The notes beneath the pieces are model-generated. The model was not told the DNA's origin. It searched no databases and saw only the letters and a list, made by a program, of their open reading frames with translations. From a virus: 64,000 bases of DNA. The stretch lies in the IMG/VR virus record IMGVR_UViG_3300009159_000035. The stretch is one strand, 5' to 3'. Shown here one piece after another: positions 1 through 27,503 of the stretch. Each line of letters begins with the position of its first letter. The first letter of the stretch is position 1. The position numbers and the translations under genes were made by a program.

Positions 1-1557
1 AATGTTAATAAAGACGGAAATGTTACATTAGCAAAAATATTCACATACGATTTGGTTGCAGAACCAGGTTTTGCACAAGCTGCGCTTGGCCAAGTATCTG
101 AAAGTTTGCAAAATAACTATTCTGCAATCTTTGAATCATTAGATTCATTAAGAACTAGCGCAATCACTACCCAATTAACAGATATTTCTGAAAACTTCGG
201 TTTTGAGGATTCTGTGAAGATTTACCGAATAAATAATCAAGAAATATCAACTAAACAAAATAATACACAGCAAATGGCTAATGAGTTTGTAACAAAAGAA
301 GAGATGAATCAGTATTCTGAACTGGTTAAAAAGAAATTTTCTTCTCTACAAGAGAATATCTCTAAAAACAATAAAGGTCTTCAAAAGATCAGTGAAAATG
401 CAACAGAAGGAGAATCTCCAGTTGTTGCTAAAATGGTAGAATACGTTAACTATTTAGCTGGCGAAATGGAGCAATTAGTTGAATACTCTAACTATCTTTC
501 AACAATGTTAAATCAAGGTATTAATTACACTGAGCATGTTGCAGAGAAAGTTAATACAGTAATCGATTATTCTGACTATTTAGCAGGCACAGTAGAAAAG
601 AATATTCAATATTCTAGCTACTTAGGAGAAAAACTTAATGAAAACATTAACTATTCTGAATATATTGCTGAAAACGTAGAAAAAACAGTTGAATATGCTA
701 ACTACATTGCAGAAAATGTAGACAGCAGTATTCAATACACAGAATACGTTGGACAAAGTGCAGAAAAAGGAATTCAATTTTCAAATTACTTAGCTGAGAA
801 TTTAGATGCATCTATTAAATACTCTAACTATTTAGGACAAAACCTTAATGAAGGTATTAGATATTCAGAATACATTGCTGAATCATTAAATGAAAAAATC
901 ACTCCTTCAGCTTTAACTAAAACTCGTTCTTTACTTGGAGAAGTTAAAAAATTAAATGAAGGCGTAGAATTTGAAGTTAATGAAACTTCTTCAGTTGATG
1001 ACCTAGTTGGAGCAGTTGATGGACTATTAACTCACATTAAATCAAATTCAGCTAAATCTATTTTGGAAAACAAATATCCATTCTTAAAATTGTTAACTGA
1101 AGGTCGTAAGCAAGCATTCTATAATTTAGATCAGCCTACTAAATCTGCAATTGTTGAAACAATGCAAGGAGCTATCTACTTTAACGAAGCTGAAGTAGTT
1201 AATATTATGGAAGCAGTTCTTAACAAACAAGTTGAAAACACGCCTAATTATATTAAACTTATGCCAGCTGCATACAAGCAATTATTTGAAAGTATGACTG
1301 ACGGAGAAAGAAATTGGATGGCTTCTCAAGCTAACAACTTCACTTTAAATACTTCATATCAAGTTAAGTCTTTTTGGGATTCTCGCGATTTAAGAGGAGT
1401 TAATGAGAGACTTGCAACTGAAACAATTATAAATAATAATTCTATTAACGAAAACCAAGGTAAAGAAGGTTACGTATCGTTAAACCAAATAAACGAAAGT
1501 CTACGTGGTTATTCTAATAACTACATGGACGCTCTTAAAAGAAGAGCACAAAATTAA
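1..1557 (+). CDS. Prohead protease (T4 gp21-like) C-terminus fused to coiled-coil scaffold/prohead core; 5'-truncated by the window
   Basis: Frame 1 is open from base 1 (NVNKDGNVTLAKIFTYDLVAEPGFAQA). TYDLVAEPGF matches the catalytic-Asp region of gp21-type prohead proteases. The gene lies directly upstream of the major capsid gene. The rest is helical with many (L/I)xE sites. The track's TTG start at 52 is not the real start. Confidence 0.8.
   Translation, partial: NVNKDGNVTLAKIFTYDLVAEPGFAQAALGQVSESLQNNYSAIFESLDSLRTSAITTQLTDISENFGFEDSVKIYRINNQEISTKQNNTQQMANEFVTKEEMNQYSELVKKKFSSLQENISKNNKGLQKISENATEGESPVVAKMVEYVNYLAGEMEQLVEYSNYLSTMLNQGINYTEHVAEKVNTVIDYSDYLAGTVEKNIQYSSYLGEKLNENINYSEYIAENVEKTVEYANYIAENVDSSIQYTEYVGQSAEKGIQFSNYLAENLDASIKYSNYLGQNLNEGIRYSEYIAESLNEKITPSALTKTRSLLGEVKKLNEGVEFEVNETSSVDDLVGAVDGLLTHIKSNSAKSILENKYPFLKLLTEGRKQAFYNLDQPTKSAIVETMQGAIYFNEAEVVNIMEAVLNKQVENTPNYIKLMPAAYKQLFESMTDGERNWMASQANNFTLNTSYQVKSFWDSRDLRGVNERLATETIINNNSINENQGKEGYVSLNQINESLRGYSNNYMDALKRRAQN
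227..237 (+). promoter_or_regulatory. Putative late promoter (ATAAATAA) internal to the protease gene
   Basis: GAATAAATAAT, about 37 nt before the in-frame ATG at 274; same core as the intergenic late boxes. Confidence 0.45.
274..1557 (+). CDS. Putative nested in-frame scaffold protein (MANEFVTKEEM...), 427 aa
   Basis: In-frame ATG at 274, preceded by an A-rich leader (aaataatacacagcaa) and a late-promoter box GAATAAATAAT at 227-237 inside a low-complexity linker. Confidence 0.5.
   Translation: MANEFVTKEEMNQYSELVKKKFSSLQENISKNNKGLQKISENATEGESPVVAKMVEYVNYLAGEMEQLVEYSNYLSTMLNQGINYTEHVAEKVNTVIDYSDYLAGTVEKNIQYSSYLGEKLNENINYSEYIAENVEKTVEYANYIAENVDSSIQYTEYVGQSAEKGIQFSNYLAENLDASIKYSNYLGQNLNEGIRYSEYIAESLNEKITPSALTKTRSLLGEVKKLNEGVEFEVNETSSVDDLVGAVDGLLTHIKSNSAKSILENKYPFLKLLTEGRKQAFYNLDQPTKSAIVETMQGAIYFNEAEVVNIMEAVLNKQVENTPNYIKLMPAAYKQLFESMTDGERNWMASQANNFTLNTSYQVKSFWDSRDLRGVNERLATETIINNNSINENQGKEGYVSLNQINESLRGYSNNYMDALKRRAQN
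433..894 (+). repeat. 11 tandem 14-aa (42-nt) degenerate repeats, consensus xI(E/Q/N)YS(N/E)Y(L/I)AExLxx
   Basis: MVEYVNYLAGEMEQ / LVEYSNYLSTMLNQ / GINYTEHVAEKVNT / VIDYSDYLAGTVEK / NIQYSSYLGEKLNE / NINYSEYIAENVEK / TVEYANYIAENVDS / SIQYTEYVGQSAEK / GIQFSNYLAENLDA / SIKYSNYLGQNLNE / GIRYSEYIAESLNE. Confidence 0.95.
1428..1437 (+). promoter_or_regulatory. Putative late promoter for the major capsid gene
   Basis: TATAAATAAT (exact T4 late consensus TATAAATA) about 140 nt upstream of the ATG at 1575. Confidence 0.5.
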
Positions 1558-1574: not shown

Positions 1575-3272
1575 ATGGCAACAAAAATTTTCAAAAAATT
1601 GAACGACGCTTCAATTAAAGAAACTTGGACCCCAATTTTAGAAGGTTATGGTGCAAACGTTACAACTCGCCCTTGGTTAGTTGACTACGCTCACAATCAT
1701 GCTATCTTCGATAATGCAGGTTCAATCAATGAATCAAACACTGGCGTAGCTCCAGGTTTATTCTTACAACAACCAGGTTCTATCAGTTCTATTGGTGCAA
1801 TTAGTTCTCCAACAAGTTCTATGACTCCATTCACAGGTGGTGCTAAAAACGGTTACGGTGCTTCTGTATCTGGTTCTGGTGATAAATTCCCAAGCCTTTT
1901 ACCAGTTGCTATCCAAGTAGCTGCTAAAACTATTGGTTTTGACCTAGTTGGTGTAGTTCCTATGGATTCTCCAGTAGGTTTCTTACCTTACTTGGATTAT
2001 GTATACCAAGGTGGTAACGTAGACAAGCAATACGAACCATATTTGATTAAAATCACAGGTTTGTTAGAAAACCCAGCTGGTGGTGCTAAATTCACAGTAG
2101 CAACTCTTCCATTTACTGAAGGTTCTAACTATGGTGTTAACGAAAGTAACACTGACTTGATTTTACAATTTGTTGGTAAATCACGTGTTGATGGTTCTCC
2201 AATCTTCAAAGTTATCCTATCTCATGATGGTGGTACTCTTGCTGATTACTTTGCAGTTGACGTTGATATTCAACCAGCTAATGCAACTGACGTTTCAGGT
2301 ACTGCGGTAGCAACTTACCGTATTGCTGATAACAAAGTTGAATTAGTTTCTGCTTTAGAAAACCATATTTCTGGTTTTACTTCAGTATCTGACGCTGATT
2401 ATGCTACATCTGACTTCAATGGTCCTTTTATGGGAACTACTGGAACTCAAATGGAAGGTATGGCTCGTCAAACTGCAGAAGGTTCTAAATTCCGTCAAAT
2501 GGGTCTTCGTATGTTCACTAAGTTCATCGAAGCAAAAGGAGATCAAGTTTCTATTTCAGCAACTGTTGAACAAATCCAAGATCTTAACCGAGTTTGGAAC
2601 TTTGACGTAATCTCTATGTTAGAGAACGTAGCAGTTAACGAATTAGCTCAATCTATTAACAAGAAATTAGTTGATAGAGTTCTTAATTTAGGAGCTACTC
2701 ACGCAACTGCAGTTAATGCGGTTGAAGGTGCTGGTATTACTACTTTAGACCTAACTGTTGGAACAATGGGATATGAGAATATTTCAACTCTACAACGTCG
2801 TGTTGTAACTAAAATTCTTGAAATGGCTAACTTGATTTATCATAGAGGTCGTTTTGGTGCAGGTACATACATCGTTACTAACGGTCGTGTTGCTTCTGCT
2901 TTAGCAGATGTAGCTGGTTATACTTTCTCTCCATTCAATAACGATTTACCATCTACTGCTGGTCAATTATACCCTGCTGGTAAAGTACACGGTTTAACAA
3001 TTTATGTTGATCCTAACTTGAAATTCACCGATAACCGTATTCATATTGGTCGTAAAGGTGCGGATGAAGAACCAGGTGTTAAATTCCTTCCATATATCAT
3101 GGCAGAGTCTCTTCAAACAATTGCAGAGGGAACTTTCTCTCCAAAAATTGGTATGAAATCTCGTTATGCTATCACTGAAGCTGGATGGCACCCAGAAACT
3201 CAATACATTACTTTGAACGTAACAGGTCTAGGTGTATTGACAGGATCTGTAGCACCAGCTGCTTCTTACTAA
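1575..3272 (+). CDS. gp23: Major capsid protein (T4 gp23-like)
   Basis: DLVGVVPMDSPVGFL, TVEQIQDL, ELAQSINKKLV, FLPYI...TFSPKIGMKSRYA match gp23 family motifs. 565 aa, strongly biased codon usage, followed by a strong terminator. Confidence 0.95.
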   Translation: MATKIFKKLNDASIKETWTPILEGYGANVTTRPWLVDYAHNHAIFDNAGSINESNTGVAPGLFLQQPGSISSIGAISSPTSSMTPFTGGAKNGYGASVSGSGDKFPSLLPVAIQVAAKTIGFDLVGVVPMDSPVGFLPYLDYVYQGGNVDKQYEPYLIKITGLLENPAGGAKFTVATLPFTEGSNYGVNESNTDLILQFVGKSRVDGSPIFKVILSHDGGTLADYFAVDVDIQPANATDVSGTAVATYRIADNKVELVSALENHISGFTSVSDADYATSDFNGPFMGTTGTQMEGMARQTAEGSKFRQMGLRMFTKFIEAKGDQVSISATVEQIQDLNRVWNFDVISMLENVAVNELAQSINKKLVDRVLNLGATHATAVNAVEGAGITTLDLTVGTMGYENISTLQRRVVTKILEMANLIYHRGRFGAGTYIVTNGRVASALADVAGYTFSPFNNDLPSTAGQLYPAGKVHGLTIYVDPNLKFTDNRIHIGRKGADEEPGVKFLPYIMAESLQTIAEGTFSPKIGMKSRYAITEAGWHPETQYITLNVTGLGVLTGSVAPAASY

Positions 3273-3389: not shown

Positions 3390-3755
3390 ATGAGCAATTC
3401 TGTTTTAAACTACTCACAATTTCTTTTAGAAAAGAAAGCAATCAACCAAGAAATGGCAATGTTGCCTAAAGGTAAAGGTTCAAAATCTACTAAATCAGTA
3501 GGATCTGAAATGTCTGAACTTCCAAAAGGAAAAGGAAAAGGTATTAGCAAATCAGTAAAACCTGAAATGTCTACTCTTCCTAAAGGAAAAGGTAAAATGA
3601 TTGGAAAATCAGTAGATACGAAAGTTTCTAAATTACCTACAACTAAAGGTGCTTCACCTAAAAAATCAGTAGACTCTAAAATGTCTAAATTGATAATTAA
3701 AGGTAAAGCTATTAGTAAGAAAGTTGAGCCTAACATGGCTAAAATGCCTAAGTAA
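3390..3755 (+). CDS. Lys-rich repeat protein, probable DNA-binding internal head protein with capsid-targeting leader
   Basis: Leader VLNYSQFLLE, then 5-6 copies of a ~19-aa unit (EMSxLPKGKGKxISKSV); highly basic. Confidence 0.7.
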   Translation: MSNSVLNYSQFLLEKKAINQEMAMLPKGKGSKSTKSVGSEMSELPKGKGKGISKSVKPEMSTLPKGKGKMIGKSVDTKVSKLPTTKGASPKKSVDSKMSKLIIKGKAISKKVEPNMAKMPK

Positions 3756-3774: not shown

Positions 3775-4080
3775 ATGTCAGATCAAAGAAAACACAAGGT
3801 CACGTCCTTTCAGTCGTTTGTTATTCAGGAAAATTCAATAAAGGATTTAGTTGGAAAAACTGATGACGAGCAATTGGACTTAGATGACGCTCGTAGTATT
3901 GGAAAAAAGATTTCCAAAATGAAAGGTGAAGATCGTAAGAAATATGTTGGCATTGTTAATTTTATGGGAGCATCTTGTAGAATTTACAATGAGATTTGGG
4001 CTAACTATAAACCAGTTGATCCATCAACCAAAAAATCAAACCGTGGAAAAGAATTCCAAGGTGAAAAAGAAGTAGGTTAA
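3775..4080 (+). CDS. Hypothetical protein, probable internal head protein
   Basis: 101-aa ORF in the late operon; N-terminal VTSFQSFVIQE resembles the targeting leader. Confidence 0.6.
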   Translation: MSDQRKHKVTSFQSFVIQENSIKDLVGKTDDEQLDLDDARSIGKKISKMKGEDRKKYVGIVNFMGASCRIYNEIWANYKPVDPSTKKSNRGKEFQGEKEVG

Positions 4081-5798: not shown

Positions 5799-6452
5799 AT
5801 GGACATGTTTAATGTAAAACGCCGAGATAATCCTTCAATGGATAAACATATGGATCTAAAGAAGCCAGGCTTCGGTGGACCAAATTCAAAGGAAGACTTT
5901 GATAAATCAAAAAGAAAATCACTTGAAGGATACCAACGAGTAGTTGACAGAAATGCCGATTTCGAAGGTGGAAATTTCAATCATAATTATGATCCAACGT
6001 GGAAAGCAGTAACCCGTGATTTAATTTCAAGAACTGCAAAGAAAAAACCATTTAATCCAATGTACGCAAAACAAACAATTGCAACAGTTAATGCTGTTGA
6101 AGAAGGTACTATCAAACGCTTTGAACAATTCGTTAATGAAAACGAAGGTTTTAATATGTTCGCTGAAGCCGAAGACGAAACTACTCCAGAAATGGAAGAA
6201 ACTACTCCAGAAATGGAAGAAGTTGAAGTAGATCAAGAACAAGTAGAAATGCTAATGGCAGATTTCGGAGATGCTCTTGAAGAAATGATTGATGAAATCG
6301 CTGAAAAAATGGAACTTGAAAAAGAAGAAGTTTGCGATATTTTATGTGCAGCTATTAAAAAGATGTGCGCTCCTGCTGAAGAAGAGGAAGAAGAAGACAA
6401 TCAAGACAATCAAGACAACGAAGACCCTTCTACTGAAGAAGACGAAAATTAA
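5799..6452 (+). CDS. Acidic prohead-core/internal protein
   Basis: Basic N-half; internal IKRFEQFVNE at 6111-6140; very acidic C-half with a 21-nt duplication (ETTPEME x2) and DNQ repeats. Confidence 0.65.
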   Translation: MDMFNVKRRDNPSMDKHMDLKKPGFGGPNSKEDFDKSKRKSLEGYQRVVDRNADFEGGNFNHNYDPTWKAVTRDLISRTAKKKPFNPMYAKQTIATVNAVEEGTIKRFEQFVNENEGFNMFAEAEDETTPEMEETTPEMEEVEVDQEQVEMLMADFGDALEEMIDEIAEKMELEKEEVCDILCAAIKKMCAPAEEEEEEDNQDNQDNEDPSTEEDEN

Positions 6453-6462
6453 GCCCAAATCA

Positions 6463-6822
6463 ATGAAATTGATTAAATTATTTGAACAATGGGTTTCCGA
6501 AGAAGGATTAGAACCACTAAAACTTGAAGTACCTGAGGTACCAAAAGAAGCGGTTGAAGATACGTATACTCTTGCGTTATCAACTAATGAATTTGGAGAT
6601 TTTGAAGTTACTGCAGTTATTGATTCAGAAGTTACAACTGACTCAACTGAGGCGTTTAAAGTAATTAGTTCAAATACTTCAAACATTGAAGTCGGAGCAA
6701 CGATTATGGTTTCATCAACCGTTGATAAAAATGATGATTCTGATATTGTTATAATAAATGACCAAAATCGCCCAGAAGATTCATTAATTTATTCAGGGAA
6801 AATTCAAATTACTAAATTGTAA
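6463..6822 (+). CDS. Hypothetical internal head protein (start corrected to ATG 6463)
   Basis: Leader MKLIKLFEQWVSEE. The track's start at 6289 overlaps the previous gene. Confidence 0.7.
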   Translation: MKLIKLFEQWVSEEGLEPLKLEVPEVPKEAVEDTYTLALSTNEFGDFEVTAVIDSEVTTDSTEAFKVISSNTSNIEVGATIMVSSTVDKNDDSDIVIINDQNRPEDSLIYSGKIQITKL

Positions 6823-22494: not shown

Positions 22495-23067
22495 TTAGTC
22501 TGCGATATCCATAATGTCTTCAAGAACTCTAATTGAGTCAGTTGAGTCATTATGTAAAATACCAGTTCCACCGGCATCAGTCCATTTATTTAGCTTAGTA
22601 TCAAAGTCATCAATTAAAATGTCAAATTTATCTCTGGCATATTTCCATTTGTCTTGATCTAACACTATTCTGGTTTTACTTGTGAAGTCTTCAGGTTTAG
22701 TAACCGGTTCTTCATCAATATGCAGGTGTAATTTAATCCATTTTGCTTTACCAGCTAAACATTCAGCACTTCTGCTTGGAGCAGATAGAATAATTGGATC
22801 GTATTGTTTTAAATAGTCCCATAATTCTCTACCATCTGGTGTCCATGGTAAATCTGCCCAAAAATCTTCGCCTAATTTATCTAGGATTGGCCAAATTGAA
22901 TTTTTGCCGTGCAGCTCCTCATATGCATGCGGAGAAAGTTTTTCAGGATTTTCTGAAATTTCCATAAAGCCTCGGTTAAAGTCTACTAAGACTCCGTCTA
23001 GGTCGCAAAAAATTGTATATTTTCCGCCTCTTTTTTCAAAGATGAATTGTTTAAATTTCTTAAGCAT
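22495..23067 (-). CDS. HAD-family 5'(3')-deoxyribonucleotidase (NT5C-like) with capsid-targeting-like leader
   Basis: IFCDLDGVLVDF, FWADLPW, ILSAP, GKAKW, ILIDD, GGTGILH. Start is ATG 23067 (MLKKFKQFIFE), overlapping the groES stop. Confidence 0.88.
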   Translation of the reverse strand: MLKKFKQFIFEKRGGKYTIFCDLDGVLVDFNRGFMEISENPEKLSPHAYEELHGKNSIWPILDKLGEDFWADLPWTPDGRELWDYLKQYDPIILSAPSRSAECLAGKAKWIKLHLHIDEEPVTKPEDFTSKTRIVLDQDKWKYARDKFDILIDDFDTKLNKWTDAGGTGILHNDSTDSIRVLEDIMDIAD

Positions 23068-26211: not shown

Positions 26212-26937
26212 TTAGTGATATTTGTTTGAAAATTTAGCTGCTGGGTATACCTTTTTAGCAAAAGCTATCCAAGAAGTCATAACTTTGTCAGCTTCAAGTT
26301 GAGAAATTACCTCTGTCTCAATAAATGGCTGTAAATATTCTGTAAACTCCTGATCGAGCGGTACTCGTTTCTTTTTAGCTGATGCATACATACCTGCAAC
26401 CATTGCTGGAATTTCATCAGATAATAAAAAGTAACGATAATTATTTTGAGCATCAGCTCTTACTGATTTTCTGGTATTAATAATATGCCCACTTTTTTTA
26501 TTTATGCCTTTTTGCAAAAGGTGTTCAAGTTCATGTCGTATATTATCAATTAATTTATAATTTAATACTGGATAACATTGAGGTTCTGCCTCTGGGCTAA
26601 TATAAACAACTACTTCAATTTCAGGGTCAACTAACTCAGTTACCTTTGGAATAAATGAATTTGCATCTATTGCAAAACCTTTATTTTCAAAATTAATTAC
26701 CTCCCAAGGAAGTCCACTAAACTCTTTAGATTTAGCTGGCTCAAATTCTTCAACTCTAACTATTTTAATAGATAGCGTAAATTCAAGTGGATTACTATAT
26801 TCAAATTCTTTAAATATTTCTTTACCTATCTTAGAACCAGCAGTTTTCTTAACTACACTAAATAAATCTTTAGCAAAAACTGATGCAAGCGAATCGTATT
26901 TTGATTCAAATATAAATTGTGAAAACCTTTTTATCAT
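26212..26937 (-). CDS. Putative zincin (HExxH) metallopeptidase-like protein with capsid-targeting leader
   Basis: Leader MIKRFSQFIFE; IRHELEHLLQ with a downstream YFLLSDEIPA as candidate third ligand. Confidence 0.7.
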   Translation of the reverse strand: MIKRFSQFIFESKYDSLASVFAKDLFSVVKKTAGSKIGKEIFKEFEYSNPLEFTLSIKIVRVEEFEPAKSKEFSGLPWEVINFENKGFAIDANSFIPKVTELVDPEIEVVVYISPEAEPQCYPVLNYKLIDNIRHELEHLLQKGINKKSGHIINTRKSVRADAQNNYRYFLLSDEIPAMVAGMYASAKKKRVPLDQEFTEYLQPFIETEVISQLEADKVMTSWIAFAKKVYPAAKFSNKYH

Positions 26938-27503
26938 TTTTTAGGTTTAATAAAATTTACTTCTAATTGATTGGTTGATGGTGATAATTTAGCATCAAAC
27001 TCTATATCAATATCGCCTTTATCAATACCTAATTTTTTAGCAGACATTGAAGATTTTAATTTATCATAAACTTCTTTATCTAAAAATCCTTCACCTCTAA
27101 GTGCATCAACAATTTCAGCTTTCTTTGAATCAAATTTATTATCAGTTATCCACTTATCTAAATCAGCCTGTTTAAGTTGGTATTCTTTATATCTTTTAAC
27201 ACCGCCGCCTCCAGTATATTGAGAATGCCATTTTTTATCAGCATCAATTAACACTAGATTAATATCGCCAGTTTGACCGGCGGTTGGAGCTGGTACATTT
27301 GGGTCTGGCGGTAATTCAGCAGTTGCAAATGGATCAGTTTGAGTTGTATCGGTTGAAGGTGGAACCGTGGTGTCAGTTGTAACCGTGGTGTCAGTTGTAA
27401 CTGGAGTTTCAGTTGCTGCCGGTGGCTCAACTGGTGGCGGAGTAGAAACAAGTTCATCTGCTTCTAGTAATAACTTAAATTGGCTAAAGTCTAGGATTTG
27501 CAT
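26934..27503 (-). CDS. Hypothetical internal head protein with a Pro/Thr linker
   Basis: Leader MQILDFSQFKLLLE; 18-nt duplication TTDTTV x2; late promoter upstream. Confidence 0.7.
   Translation of the reverse strand: MQILDFSQFKLLLEADELVSTPPPVEPPAATETPVTTDTTVTTDTTVPPSTDTTQTDPFATAELPPDPNVPAPTAGQTGDINLVLIDADKKWHSQYTGGGGVKRYKEYQLKQADLDKWITDNKFDSKKAEIVDALRGEGFLDKEVYDKLKSSMSAKKLGIDKGDIDIEFDAKLSPSTNQLEVNFIKPKK

What the first reader, a model, noticed from the sequence alone, without database searches (positions are those of the whole stretch)
433..894. The scaffold is a polymer of the targeting signal
Seen: each 14-aa scaffold repeat has the same aromatic-x-x-aromatic-phi-x-E spacing as the cargo leaders (GIRYSEYIAE, NINYSEYIAE, GIQFSNYLAE versus IKRFSQFIFE; T4 MKTYQEFIAE). 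Inference: cargo leaders may be single-unit mimics that co-assemble into the scaffold coiled coil. The (I/L)AE ends would double as protease sites, so one motif would serve recruitment, core assembly and core destruction. As far as I know the mechanism by which such leaders are recognised is not settled, so this would be a testable explanation.
Basis: inference. Interest (0 to 1): 0.8.

Follow-up and report, generated by a model that had tools for sequence, protein, structure and literature searches.

The report
Phage scaffold built from cargo-tag-like repeats
A large uncultured T4-like phage fuses its head protease to a helical scaffold of eleven 14-residue repeats that resemble the short "load into the head, then cut off" tag on many of its other proteins. 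This gives a testable but unproven idea for how such tags find the head core.

Summary
Window 433-894 encodes eleven 14-residue units in perfect register. They lie in a gene that fuses a T4 gp21-type prohead protease to a helical scaffold, directly upstream of a gp23-type capsid gene. Every unit has aromatic-x-x-aromatic(or His)-hydrophobic, and six of eleven continue x-Glu. At least five unrelated ORFs on the contig start with the same spacing (0.22 expected, p=3e-6). In the T4 tag, the two aromatic positions were mapped as targeting residues and the hydrophobic and Glu positions as processing residues.

- A profile of the units does not pick out the leaders.
- Units use Tyr where leaders use Phe.
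- In related phages the leaders are abundant even where most units lack the second aromatic.
- T4 has the tag but no such repeats.
- Leaders are near background only in two clades whose units lost the terminal hydrophobic-x-Glu.

So the leaders are not generally single-unit copies. What recurs alongside abundant leaders is one aromatic plus the cleavage motif. Docking of leaders on the repeat array remains my best guess (about 0.4). It is untested because the complex predictor was unavailable. This scan has noted the same idea on other genomes; I found no paper describing it.

The parts
1..1557 (+). 3' three-quarters of the prohead protease-scaffold fusion gene. The full ORF starts 432 nt upstream of the window, at L003:573-2561, and encodes about 662 aa.
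   Evidence: Pfam PF03420 Peptidase_S77, E 9.4e-9, 35.5 bits against a cut-off of 27. Foldseek to T4 gp21 5jbl, E 6e-7, probability 1.0. More than 3000 homologues and 5724 clusters at 50% identity.
274..276 (+). In-frame ATG (Met236 of the full protein) just after the protease domain. It is a possible start of a nested scaffold-only product.
   Evidence: Met236 is invariant in 49 homologues. An ATAAATA motif lies at nt 229-235. Not tested further.
433..894 (+). Eleven tandem 14-residue units (42 nt each; unit k starts at 433+42(k-1)). Consensus: x-[IV]-x-Y-[ST]-x-Y-[LIV]-[AG]-E-x-[LV]-[NED]-x.
   Evidence: AlphaFold2 predicts long helices at full-length residues 284-358 and 363-441, with pLDDT only about 45.
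994..1428 (+). C-terminal helical domain of the scaffold part. It is the best-folded region outside the protease domain.
   Evidence: AlphaFold2 pLDDT 70-82 for full-length residues about 476-620. Conserved across the family, including the FW motif near the end.
1575..3272 (+). Major capsid protein, T4 gp23 type.
   Evidence: Pfam PF07068, E 3.3e-40. PHROG major head protein.
3390..3755 (+). Basic 121-aa internal-protein-like gene. It has a 14-residue N-terminal leader (nt 3390-3431) followed by 19-residue Lys/Gly-rich repeats. This is the leader closest to a scaffold unit.
   Evidence: The leader is conserved in five orthologues (Y8, L12 and E14 invariant).
3775..4080 (+). 101-aa protein with a looser leader (aromatic-x-x-aromatic-hydrophobic, with Glu one residue later).
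   Evidence: Orthologues keep the aromatic pair while the Glu position moves.
6463..6822 (+). 119-aa ORF with a strict N-terminal leader (second aromatic is Trp).
   Evidence: The family recurs in six related loci.
6111..6140 (+). Internal copy of the leader pattern, at about residue 107 of the 217-aa ORF 5799-6452.
   Evidence: Not followed up.
22495..23067 (-). 190-aa HAD-type 5'-3' deoxyribonucleotidase with a strict N-terminal leader.
   Evidence: PHROG 2643, E 2e-23. Weak Pfam NT5C and HAD matches.
26212..26937 (-).
   Evidence: No Pfam or PHROG family.
26934..27503 (-). 189-aa orphan protein with a looser leader (aromatic-x-x-aromatic, Glu further on).
   Evidence: No family.

Best explanation
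The gene encodes a self-destructing prohead core protein. It has an N-terminal T4 gp21-type serine protease, a roughly 160-residue alpha-helical rod of eleven two-heptad (14-residue) units, and a folded helical C-terminal domain. Each unit carries a strictly conserved aromatic/hydrophobic seam at positions 2, 4, 7 and 8. Most units end in hydrophobic-small-Glu, the type of site that gp21 cuts. Many unrelated proteins of the phage begin with a T4-type capsid targeting sequence. This is a short amphipathic helix, aromatic-x-x-Phe-hydrophobic-x-Glu. I think the most likely mechanism has three steps. First, the rods pack side by side through the Tyr seam to build the core. Second, the leaders dock onto the same seam as foreign helices: a Phe-rich helix on a Tyr-rich surface, which is related packing but not a copy of a unit. 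Third, once the shell closes, the fused protease cuts after Glu in both. That chops the rod into roughly 14-residue peptides and frees the cargo. Shown here: the architecture, the repeats and their conservation, the leader family and its enrichment, and the protease identity. Inferred: helix packing, cleavage at these sites, packaging of the tagged proteins, and above all the leader-to-repeat contact.
For: Architecture: Peptidase_S77 match and gp21 fold; the His and Ser motifs are invariant and identical in type to those of T4 gp21; the gene sits next to a gp23-type capsid gene. Repeats. The aromatic pair is more conserved than Glu10 and is kept in units 1-2, which lack Glu, so it serves something other than cleavage. 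AlphaFold2 makes the region helical. Leaders: 5 against 0.22 expected on this contig, 21 against 2.6 in LR756500, and large excesses over the reversed-pattern control in ten further related records. Literature: in the T4 IPIII tag, residues 4 and 7 carry targeting and residues 8 and 10 carry processing, and the tags are described as having affinity for the core (PMC9026906). The mechanism is still open (PMC9958956). Comparative: leader counts fall to background in the W-type clade (G001-G005: 45 matches against 38 control over 746 kb; ORF census 2 against 1.6) and in the P0136 clade (G012: 6 against 5). In both clades the units have lost the terminal hydrophobic-x-Glu grammar. The leader of the internal-protein-like gene at 3390 matches a unit at six to seven positions, and in two orthologues it has Tyr at both aromatic positions.
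Against: A unit PSSM and a unit HMM do not retrieve leaders. There is a systematic Phe (leaders) versus Tyr/His (units) difference. In LR756500, His fills 4 of 12 unit positions but only 1 of 22 leaders. Most leaders have their upstream hydrophobic residue at -3, whereas units have it at -2. G011 and G017 have very many leaders although most of their units lack the second aromatic, and G016 and G019 do so with only about half of their units carrying it. T4 keeps the tag, yet gp22 has no aromatic repeat. Canonical-unit phage G013 has few leaders (15 against 9). The two leader-poor clades are only two independent contrasts, and they would also fit a change in protease specificity. No binding prediction could be run. 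The repeat region of the model has pLDDT about 45.
Confidence: 0.4

Rival explanations
1. Shared cleavage grammar only. Units and leaders look alike because both are substrates of the same gp21-type protease (hydrophobic at P4 and P3, Glu at P1) and both are amphipathic helices. The repeats are simply a degradable coiled-coil scaffold. Leaders are recognised by another part of the core, for example the folded C-terminal domain of this protein or other core proteins.
For: In T4, known or predicted gp21 sites in gp22, gp24, gp67, gp68 and gp21 itself also have hydrophobic residues at P4 and P3 before Glu, without being targeting tags (sequences). The feature shared by all leader-rich clades reduces to one aromatic plus hydrophobic-x-Glu. 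The unit profile does not find leaders. The leader is conserved from T4 to these phages, as the protease is, whereas the repeat is not. Unchecked scan notes report clades where leader and scaffold sites change P1 together.
Against: T4 genetics separates targeting (aromatic residues 4 and 7) from processing (8 and 10), and Asp at residue 10 blocks cutting but not targeting (PMC9026906). In the units the aromatic pair is more conserved than Glu and persists in units without Glu. The W-type units still contain hydrophobic-x-Glu, yet those phages have no leaders.
Confidence: 0.25
2. Common third partner. Both the units and the leaders bind the inner face or N-terminal propeptide of the gp23-type capsid protein, rather like encapsulin cargo peptides. 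The repeat array would then be a multivalent shell-binding scaffold and the leaders single-valent passengers.
For: The capsid protein is conserved between T4 and these phages, as the leader is. The T4 gp23 maturation site itself reads aromatic-x-x-aromatic-hydrophobic-x-Glu, so the grammar also occurs on the shell side in T4. This would explain why T4 needs no repeats.
Against: This phage's capsid propeptide has no such motif. From my own knowledge of the T4 literature, not checked here, internal proteins join cores formed without gp23. No co-variation with the capsid protein was tested.
Confidence: 0.15
3. The protease domain itself is the leader receptor. Because protease and scaffold are one chain here, every scaffold subunit could hold one leader in its inactive active-site cleft until activation. 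The cis repeats would act as competing pseudo-substrates.
For: The fusion makes protease copy number equal to scaffold copy number. Leader and protease are the two elements conserved with T4.
Against: From my own knowledge, not checked here, T4 mutants lacking gp21 still incorporate uncleaved internal proteins. The invariant internal Met suggests that a protease-free scaffold product may be the major species.
Confidence: 0.08
4. Coincidence. Two unrelated amphipathic helices happen to share a four-position pattern.
For: The match is at class level only. It was noticed post hoc, and only four of seven positions are specified.
Against: The background rate is 2e-4 per residue, giving about 0.003 for one repeat in any register. 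The same pairing recurs in relatives at 30-40% identity. It matches the functional positions of the T4 tag.
Confidence: 0.07

Closest known systems
Phage T4 capsid targeting sequence (about 10-residue N-terminal propeptide of IPII/IPIII; Mullaney & Black 1996, as reviewed in PMC9026906 and PMC9958956)
   Same: It is N-terminal and sits on unrelated proteins. It has aromatic residues three apart, followed by hydrophobic-x-Glu. It occurs in a phage with gp21-type protease and gp23-type capsid. The leaders here, and especially those of LR756500, are near-copies of the T4 pattern.
   Different: Here the tag sits on dozens of proteins per genome rather than a few. Packaging and cleavage are not shown. 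The first aromatic is Phe in this phage's clade.
T4 prohead core: gp21 protease plus gp22 major scaffold (separate genes)
   Same: The gene lies next to the capsid gene. The protease fold and catalytic motifs match. The scaffold is helical and acidic with many hydrophobic-x-Glu sites and is presumably degraded to peptides.
   Different: Protease and scaffold are one ORF. The scaffold is a regular 14-residue Tyr-rich repeat, and T4 gp22 has no aromatic-x-x-aromatic-hydrophobic-x-Glu at all. No sequence family match to any scaffold protein was found.
Protease-scaffold fusions and nested genes (lambda C/Nu3, P2 gpO, herpesvirus protease-scaffold)
   Same: Protease and scaffold share one reading frame. 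An invariant internal Met hints at a nested scaffold-only product.
   Different: The protease family differs (S77, not lambda C or P2 O type). The nested product is not shown. No tandem tag-like repeats are reported for those systems, as far as I know.
Encapsulin cargo-loading peptides (works-like comparison only)
   Same: A short terminal peptide addresses unrelated cargo to the inside of an HK97-fold shell.
   Different: Those peptides are C-terminal, bind the shell protein directly and are not cleaved. There is no homology.
Propeptide-directed head proteins of phiKZ-like and SPN3US giant phages (PMC5694885, PMC7411985)
   Same: Many head and ejection proteins are processed by a T4-related prohead protease.
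   Different: The cleavage motif and propeptides differ, and no repeat scaffold of this kind is known. I listed these papers but did not read them in detail.

Membership tests
T4 gp21-type prohead protease (MEROPS S77, Pfam PF03420) | Sequence match to the family model above the curated cut-off | tested here: met
   PF03420, E 9.4e-9, 35.5 bits against a cut-off of 27, residues 38-148 of the full protein.
T4 gp21-type prohead protease (MEROPS S77, Pfam PF03420) | gp21 fold | tested here: met
   Foldseek of the AlphaFold2 model against PDB: 5jbl chains A-C, E 6e-7 to 2e-6, probability 1.0, TM 0.56 by target.
T4 gp21-type prohead protease (MEROPS S77, Pfam PF03420) | Catalytic His and Ser motifs | tested here: met
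   The His in the ...DHP motif and the Ser in the ...SSR motif are invariant in A1 and A3. T4 gp21 has motifs of the same type.
T4 gp21-type prohead protease (MEROPS S77, Pfam PF03420) | Cleaves after Glu in hydrophobic-x-Glu | not testable with these tools
   Needs prohead proteomics or an in vitro assay.
T4-type capsid targeting sequence | Lies in the first 10-20 residues of otherwise unrelated proteins | tested here: met
   Five strict and about six loose cases on the contig. The carriers have no shared family, and one is a nucleotidase.
T4-type capsid targeting sequence | Aromatic residues three apart (T4 residues 4 and 7), then hydrophobic-x-Glu (T4 residues 8 and 10) | tested here: met
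   The residue roles come from PMC9026906.
T4-type capsid targeting sequence | Sufficient to load a protein into the head, and removed by the protease | not testable with these tools
   No virion or prohead data exist for this uncultured phage. Only uncultured relatives are in the phage collection.
T4 gp22-type major scaffold | Sequence homology to gp22 or any described scaffold family | tested here: not met
   No Pfam or PHROG scaffold family matches the part after the protease domain. It works like gp22, but membership is not shown.
T4 gp22-type major scaffold | Helical, encoded beside the capsid gene, with many protease sites | tested here: met
   The helix prediction has low confidence.
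   PSSM and HMM searches rank internal segments of unrelated proteins first. The best leader scores -1.9 bits.
   At residue level there is no co-variation. At clade level, leaders are near background in two clades with altered units. Leaders are abundant where most units (G011, G017) or about half of them (G016, G019) lack the second aromatic.
Nested protease/scaffold gene (lambda C/Nu3 type) | Internal in-frame start that gives a scaffold-only product | tested here: inconclusive
   Invariant Met236 and an ATAAATA motif about 40 nt upstream. No expression data were examined.

The most novel reading that the evidence does not exclude
One short peptide code, aromatic(s) on a helix ending in hydrophobic-x-Glu, serves three jobs in a very large family of T4-like jumbo and huge phages. 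In tandem it builds the prohead core. As a single N-terminal copy it recruits dozens of cargo proteins by packing onto that core. In both contexts it is the protease's cut site, so one cleavage event dismantles the core and releases the cargo. If this holds, it would supply the missing receptor for the T4 capsid targeting sequence. It would also allow the packaged proteome of uncultured phages to be predicted from sequence.
Probability: 0.25. Interest if true: 0.8.

Novelty: new variant of a known kind. Interest (0 to 1): 0.58.

Why it matters
How T4-type capsid targeting sequences find the scaffolding core is still unexplained, although the tag is widely used to load foreign proteins into T4 heads. 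This family has 5724 clusters at 50% identity. It offers a natural system in which the core protein is a regular array of tag-like units fused to the protease, and in which dozens of proteins per genome carry the tag. The comparative series found here makes the idea testable, by binding assays and by prohead proteomics. The series runs from canonical units, through units with one aromatic and degenerate units, to W-type units, with leader numbers from about 20 per 100 kb down to background. Even if docking is wrong, the leader census is a practical predictor of packaged and probably injected proteins in uncultured huge phages.

Tried and rejected
- Tandem Repeats Finder on the DNA found no array at 433-894, because the units are diverged at nucleotide level.
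- The unit PSSM and HMM against the contig proteome did not recover leaders, so strict mimicry was rejected.
- A T4-late-promoter-like motif upstream of leader genes showed no enrichment: 1 of 7 against 15 of 66.
- Complex prediction (repeat domain x2 plus the leader of the gene at 3390) was not available and nothing was folded.
- The AlphaFold2 monomer gave helices in the repeat region, but at pLDDT about 45 and with no usable tertiary information.
- Single-protein scans of viral contigs for three divergent clades found nothing. Contigs for several divergent representatives were too short.
- Metagenome records cannot be searched whole.
- The neighbourhood test (plus or minus 10 kb), collapsed to gene families, was underpowered. 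Strict leaders occurred in 5 of 284 families in the canonical clade and 3 of 387 in the W-type clade (Fisher p=0.29). A hydrophobic-x-Glu-aromatic N-terminal pattern was modestly commoner in the W-type clade (23 against 5, p=0.01, one of five patterns tried). It did not hold up in the whole G001 genome: 17 against 14.6 expected.
- An unbiased search for an alternative leader in G001 found only signal-peptide-like hydrophobic N-termini.
- The idea that repeat number measures head size was not supported. There are 11-15 units over genomes of 236-735 kb, with no clear scaling.
Full report
WHAT IS THERE

The window is the last 64 kb of an 87-kb viral contig with 32.5% G+C. The ORF at 1-1557 is cut by the window edge. 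In the contig it runs for about 662 codons.

Its first 150 or so residues match Pfam Peptidase_S77, the T4 gp21 prohead protease family (E 9.4e-9, above the curated cut-off). An AlphaFold2 model of this part superposes on the T4 gp21 crystal structure 5jbl (Foldseek E 6e-7, probability 1.0). The His and Ser motifs are invariant in all alignments and are of the same type as in T4 gp21. The next gene (1575-3272) is a gp23-type major capsid protein. So this is a protease-scaffold fusion of a T4-like head module.

The only hits in the reference phage collection are six uncultured huge phages of 462-735 kb, at 30-40% identity. In metagenomes the family is very large: more than 3000 proteins at 90% clustering and 5724 clusters at 50%. 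Close relatives sit on contigs of about 270 kb, two of them rated complete.

THE REPEATS

Residues 145-298 of the window ORF (nt 433-894) are eleven 14-residue units with no register slip. Across the eleven units:
- position 2 is Ile or Val;
- position 4 is Tyr in ten units and Phe in one;
- position 7 is Tyr in ten and His in one;
- position 8 is Leu, Ile or Val;
- position 9 is Ala, Gly or Ser;
- position 10 is Glu in six units;
- position 12 is hydrophobic.

In 49 homologues of 56-94% identity, the aromatics and the position-8 hydrophobic are kept in 98-100% of sequences in every unit. Glu10 is kept in units 3-11 (67-100%) but is nearly absent from units 1-2. The aromatic pair is therefore the most constrained feature and is not there only for cleavage. 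Of 120 close homologues, 116 have 11 or 12 in-register units. AlphaFold2 predicts two long helices over the region, with pLDDT about 45, and a better-defined helical C-terminal domain with pLDDT 70-82. The five distinct huge phages carry 12-15 units, very regular in four of them and more degenerate in LR756500.

THE LEADERS

On the 87-kb contig, five ORFs have [FYW]xx[FYW][ILVM]xE within their first 15 residues. Only 0.22 are expected from the internal rate of 2.0e-4 per residue (p=3e-6). About six more have looser versions. The carriers are unrelated orphans, plus a 5'-3' deoxyribonucleotidase and a small basic internal-protein-like gene next to the capsid gene.

In the complete 462-kb genome LR756500 I found 21 strict leaders against 2.6 expected (p=7e-13). 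All are variants of one 13-residue N-terminus whose core is almost the T4 tag. An unbiased search for enriched N-terminal patterns recovers this leader as the top signal.

The T4 reviews say that residues 4 and 7 of the IPIII tag (the two aromatics) mainly determine targeting and that residues 8 and 10 (Ile, Glu) determine processing. They also say that the way proteins are localised to the core "remains mysterious".

ARE THE LEADERS COPIES OF A UNIT?

A log-odds matrix and an HMM built from the eleven units were scanned over all 25,559 windows of the contig's other proteins. No leader ranks near the top. The resemblance is at the level of residue classes only, and there are systematic differences:
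- The second aromatic is Phe in leaders (20 of 22 in LR756500, 8 of 11 here). In units it is Tyr or His and practically never Phe.
- Most leaders have their upstream hydrophobic residue three positions before the first aromatic, whereas units have it two before.
- The residue between the hydrophobic and Glu is bulky in leaders and small in units.

The exception is the internal-protein-like gene at 3390. Its conserved leader matches a unit at six to seven positions, and in two orthologues it has Tyr at both aromatic positions.

COMPARATIVE TEST

Unit grammar differs between clades of the family. I counted leaders in whole viral records with a degenerate DNA pattern: ATG, 2-7 codons, then [FY]xxF-hydrophobic-x-E. 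The same pattern read backwards served as the control.

Matches against control:

| Unit grammar | Record | Matches | Control |
|---|---|---|---|
| Canonical | LR756500 | 38 | 21 |
| Canonical | G006 | 46 | 19 |
| Canonical | G007 | 17 | 4 |
| Canonical | G008 | 23 | 9 |
| Canonical | G009 | 29 | 4 |
| Canonical | G010 | 33 | 7 |
| Canonical | G013 | 15 | 9 |
| Second aromatic absent from most or half of the units; first aromatic and terminal hydrophobic-x-Glu kept | G011 | 38 | 7 |
| Same | G016 | 49 | 13 |
| Same | G017 | 43 | 6 |
| Same | G019 | 30 | 13 |
| Degenerate, almost no Glu10 | G012 | 6 | 5 |
| W-type | G001 | 16 | 11 |
| W-type | G002 | 6 | 6 |
| W-type | G003 | 6 | 2 |
| W-type | G004 | 14 | 5 |
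| W-type | G005 | 3 | 3 |

W-type units read hydrophobic-x-Glu-Trp-x-x-x-hydrophobic-Ala-Lys.

In the leader-rich records most matches are in-frame, stereotyped 39- or 42-nt starts. I fetched the 323-kb W-type record G001 in full. An ORF-based census gave 2 strict leaders against 1.6 expected, and no aromatic leader appeared among the enriched N-terminal patterns.

Three conclusions follow.
1. Leaders do not need the second aromatic in the units, so "each unit has the leader's spacing" is a property of some clades, including this window's, and not a rule.
2. Leaders are near background only where the units have lost the aromatic-...-hydrophobic-x-Glu ending. That is two independent contrasts, which is suggestive and no more, and a change in protease specificity could also explain it.
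3. T4 itself keeps the tag, while gp22 contains no such motif.

MECHANISM

I keep docking of leaders on the helical repeat array as the single most likely mechanism, at about 0.4. The reasons:
- The T4 literature places the tag's affinity in the core.
- The aromatic positions are the targeting determinants in T4 and the most conserved positions in the units.
- The repeat rod is by far the largest core element this phage encodes.
- The two leader-poor clades have altered units.

The contact would be heterotypic, not the insertion of a unit-like copy. The main rival (0.25) is that the likeness only reflects common cleavage sites on helices and that leaders are read elsewhere in the core. A common third partner such as the capsid protein (0.15), the protease cleft as receptor (0.08) and coincidence (0.07) follow. 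The cleavage part of the story is well grounded by homology but is not shown: the fused gp21-type protease cutting after Glu10 and after the leader Glu.

PRIOR KNOWLEDGE

Searches of the paper library for the capsid targeting sequence together with scaffold, repeat, jumbo or huge phage terms returned only the T4 and SPN3US literature. Nothing describes tag-like scaffold repeats or leaders in these phages. [quoted passage not shown] Within this scan the same resemblance has been noted on several other genomes. Those are unchecked AI notes and I did not count them as evidence.

VERDICT

This is a new variant of the T4 core and targeting system. Interest is moderate to high because it makes an open question testable. 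It is tempered by the negative mimicry tests and the missing binding test.

Noticed in passing
window 229-276 (+): An in-frame Met (Met236 of the full protein) just after the protease domain is invariant in 49 homologues. It is preceded by an ATAAATA motif about 40 nt upstream. A nested scaffold-only product, as in lambda C/Nu3, is plausible.
   Followed up: partly
L006 (T4, AF158101) gp23, residues 59-65: The known maturation site region of the T4 major capsid protein reads aromatic-x-x-aromatic-hydrophobic-x-Glu, the same grammar as the targeting tag. T4 gp22 has none. The motif may mark shell-core contacts in T4.
   Followed up: no
window 3468-3614 (+): The internal-protein-like gene at 3390-3755 consists of its leader plus about six 19-residue Lys/Gly-rich repeats (57-nt period found by TRF). 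This composition fits a DNA-binding internal protein.
   Followed up: partly
L010 9077-9934, L011 9037-9936, L013 9067-9972: A J-domain (DnaJ) protein gene lies directly upstream of the protease-scaffold gene in three relatives. It may be a phage-encoded co-chaperone for head assembly.
   Followed up: no
window 22495-23067 (-): A HAD-type 5'-3' deoxyribonucleotidase carries a strict leader, so a nucleotide-metabolism enzyme may be packaged and injected.
   Followed up: partly
window 6111-6140 (+): A leader-like motif occurs internally, at about residue 107 of the 217-aa acidic protein 5799-6452. It lies between Glu-rich stretches and could be an internal processing or targeting site.
   Followed up: no
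L014 86-1000; G011, G016, G017, G019 (whole records): Leader-bearing genes often come in tandem arrays of paralogues with near-identical 13-14-residue starts. Examples are ten or more in a row at G019 33.7-42.1 kb and G016 133-137 kb. This points to rapidly expanding cargo families.
   Followed up: partly
(contig carrying P0206): In one divergent clade a ribosomal protein bS21 gene sits immediately upstream of the protease-scaffold gene. This matches the gene order described for freshwater Bacteroidetes phages in PMC9723584. The units of that clade have Glu in place of the second aromatic and Gly in place of Glu10.
   Followed up: no
L098 5072-7528: A W-type-clade contig encodes an 818-aa protein with precomputed Pfam hits to major vault protein domains (Vault_3 weak, MVP_shoulder), a few genes upstream of the protease-scaffold gene.
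   Followed up: no
scaffold genes of LR756500-504, G006, G007, G013 and this window: Unit number stays at 11-15 over genome sizes of 236-735 kb. The repeat array therefore does not scale simply with genome or capsid size.
   Followed up: partly
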